From NCBI RefSeq assembly GCF_036507355.1, contig NZ_AP027877.1: 64,000 nucleotides of DNA, one strand, 5' to 3'. The position numbers are program-made. This DNA is from Escherichia coli. GTDB taxonomy: Bacteria; Pseudomonadota; Gammaproteobacteria; Enterobacterales; Enterobacteriaceae. This document shows, one piece after another, positions 58,401 through 61,400 of this stretch (positions are counted from its first letter, which is position 1; the number at the start of each line of letters is the position of its first letter).

Positions 58401-61400
58401 CAACGCGTCGGCAAAGATCCGTCTGGGTCACCGTTCAATTCTTTAGTGCAACTGGAAATGGAGCAGGGTATTCCGCGTAATCCGTTTATTAATGCTGGTG
58501 CGCTGGTGGTCTGCGATATGTTGCAAGGGCGATTAAGCGCACCACGGCAACGTATGCTGGAAGTCGTGCGCGGCTTAAGCGGTGTGTCTGATATTTCCTA
58601 CGATACGGTGGTAGCGCGTTCCGAATTTGAACATTCCGCGCGAAATGCGGCTATCGCCTGGCTGATGAAGTCGTTTGGCAATTTCCATCATGACGTGACA
58701 ACCGTTCTGCAAAACTACTTTCATTACTGCGCTCTGAAAATGAGCTGTGTAGAGCTGGCCCGGACGTTTGTCTTTCTGGCTAATCAGGGGAAAGCTATTC
58801 ATATTGATGAACCTGTGGTGACGCCAATGCAGGCACGGCAAATTAACGCGCTGATGGCGACCAGTGGTATGTACCAGAACGCGGGGGAGTTTGCCTGGCG
58901 GGTGGGACTACCGGCGAAATCTGGCGTTGGTGGCGGTATTGTGGCGATTGTTCCGCATGAAATGGCCATCGCAGTCTGGAGTCCGGAACTGGATGATGCT
59001 GGTAACTCGCTTGCGGGCATTGCCGTCCTTGAACAATTGACGAAACAGTTAGGGCGTTCGGTTTATTAATGCAGTCTCTCGATACACTCTTCGCGCGTTT
59101 ATCCCGTTCAAAATTTCGATCTCGCTTTCGTTTGGGCATGAAAGAGCGTCAGTATTGTCTGGAGAAAGGCGCGCCAGTCATCGAACAACATGCGGCGGAT
59201 TTTGTCGCTAAACGTCTTGCTCCGGCATTACCGGCTAATGACGGTAAACAAACCCCCATGCGCGGGCATCCGGTGTTTATCGCTCAGCACGCCACCGCGA
59301 CCTGCTGTCGCGGTTGTCTGGCTAAGTGGCATAACATTCCGCAGGGTGTTTCGTTAAGCGAAGAACAACAACGTTATATCGTGGCGGTAATCTATCACTG
59401 GCTGGTTATACAGATGAATCAGCCATGATAATTGCGGAAAACGATAAAATAGCATTCCCAGGGTACCTTTATTTGCCGCCGCTGTCAGCGAACATGCTAT
59501 CCTTTATGAGAATTTACTTATTACGTTGAGATAATTGCCACCCGCAATTGTATGGACAGATAATTAATGCATGTACACCCCATTTCAACTTTCCGTTTGT
59601 TCCAGGAAGGTCATCTGCTACGTAATAGCATCGCTATTTTTGCGCTAACCACGCTGTTCTATTTTATTGGTGCAGAGTTACGGCTGGTTCACGAACGTTC
59701 TCTTTTCTGGCCGCTGAATGGCGTAATGGCGGGGGTGTTTGCCCGCTATGTCTGGCTTAATCGACTGCATTACTATGCGATCAGTTATGTGGCGATGCTG
59801 GTTTATGATGCCATAACCACCGAATGGGGACTGGTTTCACTGGCTATCAATTTCTCCAATATGATGTTTATTGTTACCGTCGCCTTACTGGTCGTGCGGG
59901 ATAAGCGTTTGGGGAAAAATAAGTATGAGCCAGTAAGTGCCTTACGGCTATTTAATTACTGTCTGATTGCCGCATTATTATGCGCTATTGTCGGGGCGAT
60001 TGGTTCGGTCAGTATTGATAGTCTGGATTTCTGGCCTTTGCTTGCGGACTGGTTCAGTGAGCAATTCTCAACGGGCGTGTTGATCGTGCCTTGTATGCTG
60101 ACGTTGGCTATTCCTGGAGTGCTGCCGCGCTTTAAAGCAGAACAGATGATGCCCGCCATCGCGCTTATTGTGTCGGTTATTGCCTCGGTAGTCATTGGCG
60201 GAGCGGGGAGTCTGGCGTTCCCGCTGCCTGCATTAATCTGGTGTGCAGTGCGCTATACGCCGCAGGTCAACATGTCTGTTGACCTTTGTCACCGGTGCGG
60301 TGGAAATCGTACTGGTGGCTAATTCGGTGATTGATATCTCGGTCGGTTCGCCGTTCTCCATTCCGGAAATGTTCTCCGCACGTCTCGGTATTGCCACGAT
60401 GGCGATATGCCCAATTATGGTTTCTTTTAGCGTGGCAGCGATCAATTCGCTAATGAAGCAAGTTGGGCTGCGAGCCGACTTTGATTTTCTGACTCAGGTT
60501 TACTCACGGTCCGGTCTTTATGAGGCGCTGAAAAGTCCATCGCTGAAACAGACACAACATCTGACTGTCATGCTGCTTGATATCGACTATTTCAAAAGTA
60601 TTAACGATAACTATGGACATGAATGTGGCGATAAAGTGTTAAGCGTGTTTGCCCGGCATATTCAGAAGATTGTCGGTGATAAGGGGTTGGTGGCGCGCAT
60701 GAGCGGCGAAGAATTTGCTGTTGCAGTGCCGTCGGTGAATCCTGTCGATGGTCTGCTAATGGCGGAAAAAATCCGTAAAGGCGTTGAACTGCAACCATTC
60801 ACCTGGCAACAAAAAACGCTTTATCTCACGGTAAGTATTGGCGTCGGTAGTGGTCGCGCATCGTACCGAACGCTGACCGATGACTTTAATAAATTGATGG
60901 TCGAAGCCGATACGTGTCTGTATCGCTCGAAGAAAGATGGGCGCAACCGTACCAGCACTATGCGTTACGGTGAGGAAGTTGTCTGACATCTTTGTTCATT
61001 CGGAGCGATTTGAATGCAATGTGTTCTACCACTTTATGATCCAGGAAAAGGCGTTTTTCCTCGATTAAACCATGATCCGCGCCACACTTTTCTCATAAAA
61101 CTGCTCATTAATCATCAGGAGTTGATCAAAACAGGGGTTCGTCGTATTAAAGTTTGCTAACCTGTCGTACCAATTCAAACAGGTTGTATGACTAATCAGA
61201 AGGGAACCCATTGTGAAAACACTAAATCGTCGCGATTTTCCCGGTGCACAGTATCCAGAACGTATCATTCAGTTTGGTGAAGGTAACTTCCTGCGCGCCT
61301 TTGTTGACTGGCAAATCGATCTCCTGAATGAGCACACCGATCTGAATTCTGGCGTGGTCGTTGTTCGTCCGATTGAAACTTCATTCCCGCCGTCACTGAG

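What the first reader, a model, noticed from the sequence alone, without database searches (positions are those of the whole stretch)
59567..60986. yneF (dgcF) appears split between two frames
A 251-codon membrane-domain ORF and a 247-codon GGDEF-domain ORF overlap at 60243-60322 in different frames. The GGDEF frame is closed upstream by stops at 60189 and 60234, so the cyclase domain has no in-frame ATG-initiated N-terminus. Either a frameshift separates sensor and catalytic domains, or the catalytic part is expressed alone from the GTG at 60243.
Basis: seen in the sequence. Interest (0 to 1): 0.45.

Follow-up and report, generated by a model that had tools for sequence, protein, structure and literature searches.

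The report
Frameshifted dgcF (yneF) pseudogene
One extra C splits this E. coli strain's dgcF diguanylate cyclase gene into two overlapping reading frames, making an ordinary strain-private pseudogene whose only unusual feature is that the extra base completes a small DNA hairpin where other strains' dgcF genes are also broken.

Summary
ORFs 59567-60322 (251 aa) and 60243-60986 (247 aa, GGDEF domain) exist and overlap in different frames. The gene is dgcF/yneF, lying between yneG and uxaB. In most E. coli, and in Escherichia fergusonii, Citrobacter, Enterobacter and Lelliottia, it is a single 472-482 codon ORF.

The window differs by one inserted C at 60268. None of 4,837 complete E. coli genomes carries this insertion, and its two products occur on one contig (BED22408.1 and BED22409.1).

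The C converts an imperfect inverted repeat into a perfect 9-bp hairpin (60264-60272 / 60277-60285). That is the signature of a replication template-switch mutation, and only 5 of 4,258 possible insertions would do the same.

The allele also carries three private missense changes and no private synonymous change. They are L44R, A300G and G379S, and G379S turns the catalytic GGEEF into SGEEF. This points to real decay rather than a sequencing error.

GTG 60243 has no ribosome-binding site and lies upstream of the lesion. Nothing supports programmed frameshifting. Re-initiation at GTG 60327 cannot be excluded.

Verdict: an ordinary private pseudogene of low interest. As a side lead, four other independent dgcF lesions map to the same roughly 10 bp.

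The parts
59567..60986 (+). dgcF (yneF) pseudogene. It is 1420 bp, against 1419 bp in intact alleles.
   Evidence: Shows 99.4-99.5% identity to intact dgcF of E. coli LH50-c and O78 strain 3, in the same position between yneG and uxaB.
59567..60322 (+). ORF1. It encodes native DgcF residues 1-234 (about 7-8 predicted membrane helices), then 17 out-of-frame residues (NMSVDLCHRCGGNRTGG) and a TAA stop.
   Evidence: Deposited as BED22408.1, 'hypothetical protein VEE46_21760'.
60268..60268 (+). The inserted C (GGT-AAC becomes GGTCAAC). This is the frameshift mutation.
   Evidence: Alignment to four intact alleles. Absent from all 4,837 complete E. coli genomes that match a 61-base probe. It is not in a homopolymer run.
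60264..60285 (.). Perfect 9-bp inverted repeat AGGTCAACA / TGTTGACCT with a 4-nt loop, created by the inserted C. Intact alleles carry a quasipalindrome with one bulged G.
   Evidence: the repeat finder reports it in the window but not in L001. DNA hairpin energy is -8.4 kcal/mol (z = -4.8) against -3.3 kcal/mol in the intact allele. Only 5 of 4,258 possible single-base insertions in dgcF create a perfect stem of 9 bp or more.
60243..60986 (+). ORF2 as listed mechanically. The native DgcF frame resumes at 60270 (T235). Codons 60243-60269 are non-native.
   Evidence: The depositor annotated a 235-aa version starting at TTG 60279 (BED22409.1). That TTG lies inside the hairpin stem.
60474..60950 (+). 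GGDEF domain, residues 303-461 of the repaired protein.
   Evidence: Pfam PF00990 at E=2e-40 and TIGR00254 at E=3e-37.
60702..60716 (+). Catalytic A-site motif, which reads SGEEF instead of GGEEF. The G-to-A change at 60702 gives G379S.
   Evidence: The allele is absent from 5,256 genomes. Residue G379 is invariant in 15 orthologues from Escherichia, Citrobacter, Enterobacter and Lelliottia.
59696..59698 (+). Private missense change L44R (T-to-G at 59697), in a membrane-domain residue that is otherwise invariant.
   Evidence: No 28-mer carrying this allele exists in the complete-genome collection.
60465..60467 (+). Private missense change A300G (C-to-G at 60466). Orthologues have A or S at this position.
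60327..60329 (+). GTG in the native frame (V254), 4 nt after the ORF1 stop, with GGUGG 8-12 nt upstream. It is the only plausible site for re-initiation by terminating ribosomes. This is an inference only.
   Evidence: Shine-Dalgarno scan gives -4.9 kcal/mol. The GGUGG lies in a 14-bp mRNA stem that a terminating ribosome would open. Gene callers chose the equivalent start for a 219-aa product in another strain (P0021).
59506..59564 (+). Promoter-like hexamers upstream of dgcF. The upstream region is unchanged compared with strains that carry intact genes.
   Evidence: Consensus scan only, and not above chance. There are no private changes at 59430-59566. The K-12-type deletion removes 59502-59999.

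Best explanation
This is a strain-private loss-of-function allele of the membrane-bound diguanylate cyclase gene dgcF (yneF). One C was inserted at 60268, inside codon 234. The most likely cause is replication template switching within a natural quasipalindrome, because the new base is exactly the one needed to pair with the bulged G of the opposite arm. Translation from the normal ATG at 59567 therefore leaves the native frame after V234 and stops at 60320-60322. The product is a 251-residue membrane fragment with no catalytic domain. The last two membrane helices and the GGDEF domain remain as an orphan reading frame with no proper start. The allele has also accumulated L44R, A300G and G379S (GGEEF to SGEEF). 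This is what is expected of a gene no longer under selection. Shown here: the insertion, its uniqueness, the hairpin completion, the extra private substitutions and the intact state elsewhere. Inferred: the template-switch mechanism, the loss of function, and the order of the mutations.
For: 1. Intact single ORF elsewhere. A 1419-bp, 472-aa gene lies in the same yneG-dgcF-uxaB context in LH50-c, O157:H7, O145 and O78 strains. Of 5,414 matching genomes, 4,189 cover at least 80% of the region. Orthologues of 472-482 aa occur in E. fergusonii, Citrobacter, Enterobacter and Lelliottia.
2. The only length difference is the C at 60268. It is found in 0 of 4,837 genomes. Each of the two products is on a single 4,643,937-bp contig among about 15 billion proteins.
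3. The insertion perfects a 9-bp inverted repeat. Only 5 of 4,258 possible insertions do so. Quasipalindrome mutations are defined by exactly this outcome (PMC7202029).
4. Private changes in dgcF are 3 nonsynonymous to 0 synonymous. In glsB, yneG and uxaB together they are 2 to 12 (Fisher p=0.015). L44 and G379 are invariant in 15 orthologues.
5. The assembly is otherwise clean. There are 2 indels in 22.1 kb compared with O78 strain 3, and 22 flanking genes are full-length without gaps or internal stops.
6. dgcF is known to be dispensable. K-12 lacks its promoter and first 144 codons and does not express it (PMC4287979 and PMC5635695).
Against: Only one genome carries the allele and no reads are available, so a consensus error cannot be formally excluded. 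The counts behind the excess of nonsynonymous changes are small. For the flanking genes, 'private' was judged against only five references. G-to-S at the first motif position does not necessarily abolish activity, because natural SGDEF cyclases can be active (PMC3974145 and PMC10402110). Shigella DGC pseudogenes with premature stops still raise c-di-GMP (PMC11327459), so complete loss of function is inferred rather than shown.
Confidence: 0.85

Rival explanations
1. Sequencing or assembly error. The real gene is intact, and the extra C is an artefact of the deposited consensus.
For: The allele is seen in one assembly only. No independent assembly from reads contains either product. The same 22 kb holds one other indel, in an A7/A8 homopolymer run in mgtT.
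Against: The insertion is not in a homopolymer. It is one of only 5 in 4,258 possible insertions that perfect a hairpin, which a random error would rarely do. It is accompanied by three private missense changes and no private synonymous change, two of them at otherwise invariant residues. The mgtT A7 allele is shared by 87 other records, so it is not evidence of a poor assembly.
Confidence: 0.07
2. A functional split gene. Terminating ribosomes re-initiate at GTG 60327, or internal initiation occurs at another start. The result is a protein with one membrane helix plus the GGDEF domain, which still makes or binds c-di-GMP, as reported for Shigella dgcE, dgcQ and dgcN pseudogenes.
For: GTG 60327 lies 4 nt after the ORF1 stop, with GGUGG upstream. 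The promoter region is unchanged. The downstream frame is open for the whole GGDEF domain. There are precedents for active degenerate DGC pseudogenes and for active SGDEF enzymes.
Against: GTG 60243 and TTG 60279 have no usable Shine-Dalgarno sequence, and 60279, 60300 and 60315 lie inside stable mRNA stems. The A-site glycine, invariant in all 15 orthologues, is replaced. Whether a natural GG(D/E)EF enzyme tolerates G-to-S is untested, and one engineered A-to-S change abolished activity. The arrangement is not conserved in any other genome. dgcF is very weakly expressed even when intact. Most of the membrane domain, which presumably controls dimerisation, would be missing.
Confidence: 0.06
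3. Programmed +1 ribosomal frameshifting, or transcriptional slippage, restores a full-length protein.
For: The two frames overlap by 80 nt, and a CUU-U sequence (60284-60287) lies within the overlap.
Against: The arrangement is not conserved: 0 of 4,837 genomes have it, and all orthologues are single-frame. The CUU is followed by UGU rather than a stop or a rare codon, and no Shine-Dalgarno-like stimulator lies 3 nt upstream. The overlap contains no A or T run that could support transcriptional slippage. Any shift downstream of 60270 would leave scrambled residues in an invariant helix (TCLLTF).
Confidence: 0.02

Closest known systems
Intact DgcF (YneF) of E. coli (e.g. WP_000558030.1, 472 aa) and of Shigella flexneri
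   Same: Same locus (yneG-dgcF-uxaB) and 99.4-99.5% nucleotide identity. It has the same hydrophobic N-terminal domain of about 300 aa, which matches no Pfam family. It has the same GGDEF domain without an RxxD I-site (GDKG stands where RxxD would be). Sources; PMC4287979.
   Different: The window allele has a +1 insertion after codon 234, an SGEEF A-site, and the changes L44R and A300G. The intact protein is an active cyclase when expressed in Shigella (PMC11327459).
E. coli K-12 dgcF, the 5'-truncated pseudogene
   Same: An independent natural loss-of-function allele of the same gene. RefSeq flags it as a pseudogene, and it is not expressed (PMC4287979 and PMC5635695).
   Different: The K-12 lesion is a 498-bp deletion, equivalent to window 59502-59999. 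It removes the promoter-proximal region and the first 144 codons. About a fifth of complete genomes share it. The window lesion is a private point insertion with the promoter intact.
Quasipalindrome-associated template-switch mutations (Ripley model; the thyA hotspot and lacZ QP reporters of the Lovett laboratory)
   Same: An imperfect inverted repeat becomes perfect through a templated 1-nt change, which produces a frameshift.
   Different: This one is inferred from a natural allele rather than measured. It arose once in about 5,000 genomes, so it is not a strong recurrent hotspot for this particular +C event.
Shigella flexneri degenerate DGC pseudogenes dgcE, dgcQ and dgcN
   Same: A premature stop lies ahead of an open GGDEF-encoding frame, with several internal candidate start codons.
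   Different: The Shigella genes keep a canonical A-site and were shown to raise c-di-GMP. Here the A-site is altered and nothing has been measured.

Membership tests
DgcF/YneF orthologue group | Located between yneG and uxaB, with near-identity along the full length | tested here: met
   Identity is 99.5% over 1419 bp, and the flanking genes are collinear.
DgcF/YneF orthologue group | A single ORF of about 472 codons encoding the membrane domain fused to GGDEF | tested here: not met
   A +1 insertion at 60268 splits the gene into ORFs of 251 and 247 codons.
DgcF/YneF orthologue group | GGDEF domain present (PF00990) | tested here: met
   E=2e-40, covering the full 161-position profile.
Active diguanylate cyclase | Canonical GG(D/E)EF A-site | tested here: not met
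   The motif reads SGEEF. The glycine is invariant in 15 orthologues and in 5,256 E. coli genomes. The literature allows (G/S/A)G(D/E)EF in some enzymes.
Active diguanylate cyclase | c-di-GMP synthesis | not testable with these tools
   Requires LC-MS/MS or a riboswitch reporter in the strain.
Quasipalindrome template-switch mutation | [quoted passage not shown] | tested here: met
   An 8/9 quasipalindrome with a bulged G becomes a perfect 9-bp stem, and the inserted C pairs with that G.
Quasipalindrome template-switch mutation | Elevated rate at this site, dependent on replication and exonuclease genotype | not testable with these tools
   Needs reporter or mutation-accumulation assays.
Programmed +1 ribosomal frameshift (prfB type) | The frameshift arrangement is conserved among orthologues | tested here: not met
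   The arrangement is private to one genome.
Programmed +1 ribosomal frameshift (prfB type) | A slippery codon followed by a stop or rare codon, with a Shine-Dalgarno-like stimulator upstream | tested here: not met
   Read from the sequence. CUU-UGU has no upstream Shine-Dalgarno-like element.
Expressed degenerate DGC pseudogene (Shigella dgcE/Q/N type) | An internal start that allows translation of the GGDEF part | tested here: inconclusive
   Only GTG 60327 is plausibly placed, with a weak Shine-Dalgarno sequence, and there are no expression data.

The most novel reading that the evidence does not exclude
The small quasipalindrome at dgcF codons 233-240 lies 2.4 kb from a TerC-like replication terminator. 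It may be a natural fragile site that repeatedly destroys dgcF in E. coli populations. It would produce template-switch frameshifts, as in this window, and would also fix one end of larger deletions. Three different deletions in other lineages end at exactly the same nucleotide there, and a 2-bp deletion lies 6 bp away. A second, less likely novel reading is that the split gene still signals through a re-initiated SGEEF fragment (probability about 0.05).
Probability: 0.3. Interest if true: 0.4.

Novelty: new member of a known kind. Interest (0 to 1): 0.2.

Why it matters
For genome annotation, VEE46_21760 and VEE46_21770 should be merged into one dgcF pseudogene rather than kept as two 'hypothetical proteins'. 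For c-di-GMP biology, this adds one more natural loss-of-function allele to a cyclase already known to be dispensable and variably present. Strains cannot be assumed to share the same set of cyclases. The only wider point is mutational. The lesion is a clean natural example of a quasipalindrome-perfecting frameshift, and other dgcF lesions cluster at the same spot. If that clustering holds in a large survey, it would be a natural hotspot for studying hairpin-associated mutation near the replication terminus.

Tried and rejected
- Identity of the N-terminal domain. Pfam (E up to 10) and NCBIfam gave no family for the membrane domain. An AlphaFold2 model built from 16 orthologues had pLDDT below 50 across residues 1-303. 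No fold search was run because the matches would be meaningless.
- The look-up of encoding contigs found no record for ORF1, so the strain name could not be recovered. Only the locus-tag prefix VEE46 and the contig length are known.
- The 46-base probes centred on L44R and A300G returned 'no match'. A central mismatch leaves no 28-base seed. I read this as absence of the window allele from the collection, not as absence of the gene.
- The first 61-base probe for G379S also contained a synonymous site shared with O145 strains. It was repeated with a cleaner 46-base probe.
- Povolotsky and Hengge 2016 (PMC4686209), the main comparative survey of GGDEF/EAL genes, is not held.
- GTG 60243 as a start was rejected. 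It has no Shine-Dalgarno sequence and its first 9 codons are non-native.
- An internal promoter-like hit at 60391-60418 was rejected as evidence. The scan found 5 hits against 3.7 +/- 1.8 expected.
- The -1 frameshift and transcriptional slippage options were rejected from the sequence. A -1 shift goes in the wrong direction, and there is no homopolymer run.
- The junctions of the L007 and L012 deletions were searched in complete genomes. Neither was found, so those alleles are known only from read-based and metagenome assemblies.

Full report
**Observation**

The mechanical ORF list shows an ATG-initiated ORF at 59567-60322 (251 aa) and a GTG-initiated ORF at 60243-60986 (247 aa). They are in different frames and overlap at 60243-60322. 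The second frame is closed upstream by stops at 60189 and 60234. ORF2 carries a complete GGDEF domain (PF00990, E=2e-40; TIGR00254, E=3e-37). ORF1 is hydrophobic and matches no Pfam or NCBIfam model. The finding is accurate as written.

**What the gene is**

The flanking genes are sad, glsB and yneG upstream and uxaB, yneE and tam downstream. This is the dgcF (yneF) position.

A megablast of 59400-61200 against 5,426 complete E. coli genomes matched 5,414 of them, and 4,189 covered at least 80% of the region. The best identity was only 99.4%.

In strains LH50-c, O157:H7 AC-5, O145 RM9872 and O78 strain 3, the gene is one 1419-bp, 472-aa ORF. RefSeq annotates it as a (sensor domain-containing) diguanylate cyclase.

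Orthologues of 472-482 aa with the same membrane-domain-plus-GGDEF layout occur in Escherichia fergusonii, Citrobacter, Enterobacter and Lelliottia. The fused single frame is therefore ancestral.

Richter et al. 2014 describe full-size YneF as follows (PMC4287979):
- It has a hydrophobic N-terminal domain of about 300 aa that is unique in E. coli.
- Its GGDEF domain has an intact A-site and no I-site.
- It is weakly expressed, and expression depends on RpoS.
- In K-12 the gene is truncated at the 5' end.

The K-12-type deletion corresponds to window 59502-59999.

**The lesion**

Alignment with four intact alleles shows one length difference, a C at 60268 (GGT-AAC becomes GGTCAAC).
- ORF1 keeps native residues 1-234, then reads 17 aberrant codons and stops.
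- The native frame resumes at 60270 (T235), so the first nine codons of ORF2 are not DgcF sequence.
- The break falls at the start of the penultimate predicted membrane helix, within the invariant TCLLTF segment. It is not at the domain boundary.

A 61-base probe across the site matched 4,837 genomes, none at 99% identity or better. None of them therefore has the insertion.

The exact 251-aa product and the 235-aa product from TTG 60279 exist in the 15-billion-protein collection. They appear only as BED22408.1 and BED22409.1, 'hypothetical proteins' VEE46_21760 and VEE46_21770, on one 4,643,937-bp E. coli contig.

**Real mutation or error?**

Three lines of evidence favour a real mutation.

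1. The inserted C is not in a homopolymer run, and it completes a perfect 9-bp inverted repeat.
   - The repeat is AGGTCAACA (60264-60272) / TGTTGACCT (60277-60285), with a 4-nt loop. The intact allele has the same repeat with one bulged G.
   - The DNA hairpin energy goes from -3.3 to -8.4 kcal/mol.
   - Of 4,258 distinct single-base insertions possible in intact dgcF, only five create a perfect stem of 9 bp or more that includes the new base.
   - This is the defining outcome of quasipalindrome-associated template-switch mutagenesis (PMC7202029).

2. The allele carries three further changes that no complete genome has.
   - These are L44R (59697), A300G (60466) and G379S (60702).
   - G379S turns GGEEF into SGEEF.
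   - L44 and G379 are invariant in 15 orthologues spanning about 30% divergence.
   - Private changes in dgcF are 3 nonsynonymous to 0 synonymous. In glsB, yneG and uxaB together they are 2 to 12 (p=0.015).

3. The assembly is otherwise clean.
   - The 22.1 kb collinear with O78 strain 3 contains two indels.
   - 22 flanking genes are full-length without gaps or internal stops.
   - The second indel is an A7/A8 run in mgtT. Its A7 allele is shared by 87 other records.

I therefore rate a real, somewhat aged pseudogene at 0.85 and an assembly error at 0.07.

**Could the catalytic half still be made?**

- GTG 60243 has no Shine-Dalgarno pairing (+1.9 kcal/mol) and lies inside the translated ORF1.
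- The depositor's TTG 60279 sits in the hairpin stem.
- GTG 60300 and GTG 60315 sit in a second, 14-bp mRNA stem.
- GTG 60327 is the only favourably placed start. It lies 4 nt past the ORF1 stop, with GGUGG upstream. Terminating ribosomes could re-initiate there and make a 219-aa protein with one membrane helix plus the GGDEF domain.

There are precedents. Shigella dgcE, dgcQ and dgcN pseudogenes with premature stops still raise c-di-GMP (PMC11327459), and natural SGDEF enzymes can be active (PMC3974145 and PMC10402110).

Several points argue against this reading:
- The A-site is altered at an otherwise invariant glycine.
- The arrangement is private to one genome.
- dgcF is weakly expressed even when intact.
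- Most of the membrane domain would be lost.

I give this reading 0.06.

Programmed +1 frameshifting gets 0.02. The arrangement is not conserved, no slippery-plus-stimulator signal is present, and no homopolymer run could support transcriptional slippage.

**Context: dgcF is often lost**

Besides the K-12-type deletion, found in about a fifth of complete genomes, several other damaged alleles exist:
- Strain S19-141 has an independent T insertion, flagged 'frameshifted'.
- The protein collection holds many E. coli alleles with internal in-frame deletions or fusions to uxaB, yneE or hipA.

**Side lead**

Several independent lesions map to the same few bases as the window's insertion.
- A 2-bp deletion (TGTC[TG]TTG) in six metagenome or read-based contigs gives the same two-ORF layout, with GGEEF intact.
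- Three different deletions share the identical left end, immediately after GGTAAC. One runs to uxaB, one to yneE and one to unrelated DNA.
- The right end of the yneE deletion lies at the centre of the perfect palindrome TGAAGA|TCTTCA.
- Among truncated or fused alleles visible with break-points at residues 225-472, three of nine fall at residues 235-240, where 0.25 would be expected.

The ascertainment is biased towards fragments of similar length. None of these junctions occurs in the complete genomes.

A TerC-like site lies 2.4 kb away at 62700-62722 (the identification rests on my recollection of the Ter consensus). Whether fork arrest there contributes is speculation.

**Verdict**

The feature is an ordinary, strain-private dgcF pseudogene that was mis-annotated as two hypothetical proteins. 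It was generated by a known mutational mechanism in a gene already known to be dispensable. Interest is low, at 0.2. The possible hairpin-associated hotspot is the only element worth following up.

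Noticed in passing
window 60264-60285, with related loci L007 (4691-4720), L009-L011, L012-L014 and L015 (2191-2230): At least five independent dgcF lesions cluster at this quasipalindrome. They are the window's +C, a 2-bp deletion allele, and three different deletions (to uxaB, to yneE, and to unrelated DNA) that share exactly the same left end after GGTAAC. This may be a hairpin-associated fragile site. The sampling is biased, and the junctions are absent from complete RefSeq genomes.
   Followed up: partly
window 62700-62722 (minus strand), between uxaB and yneE: A TerC-like replication terminator sequence, AGATAGAATGTTGTAACTAATAT. The core GTTGTAACTA occurs once in the window, against 0.09 expected. 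It lies 2.4 kb from the dgcF lesion. Two of the deletions seen in other lineages would remove it.
   Followed up: partly
window 63283-63306 (yneE): The perfect 12-bp palindrome TGAAGA|TCTTCA lies inside yneE. Its centre is the right end-point of the dgcF-yneE fusion deletion found in L015 (protein P0088).
   Followed up: partly
window 41081-41848: An IS1 copy (99.6% identical to IS1A of strain O78-3) is inserted near the 3' end of ydfI, with a 9-bp target duplication. It is a second disrupted gene in the window, at a different position from the IS1 that truncates ydfI in O78 strain 3.
   Followed up: partly
window 48549-48652 (minus strand), indel at 48569: The small-protein gene mgtT has an A7 run instead of A8. 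The reading frame changes, and MgtT ends after 30 instead of 34 residues. The A7 allele is a minority allele shared by 87 complete-genome records.
   Followed up: partly
window 60288-60319: A 14-bp mRNA stem, GUCACCGGUGCGGU-GGAA-AUCGUACUGGUGGC, is predicted inside dgcF. The 96-nt region that contains it and the hairpin folds with z = -5.6. The same sequence is present in intact alleles. Its function, if any, is unknown.
   Followed up: no
window 49000-51200 (ydeE and eamA): ydeE (96.8%) and eamA (95.0%) are much more divergent from O78 strain 3 than the neighbouring genes (98.2-100%). This suggests a recombined segment in this lineage.
   Followed up: no
L009 2207-2501: In one metagenome contig carrying the 2-bp-deletion allele, the yneG-dgcF spacer is 293 bp instead of 138 bp, which implies an insertion upstream of dgcF.
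   Followed up: no
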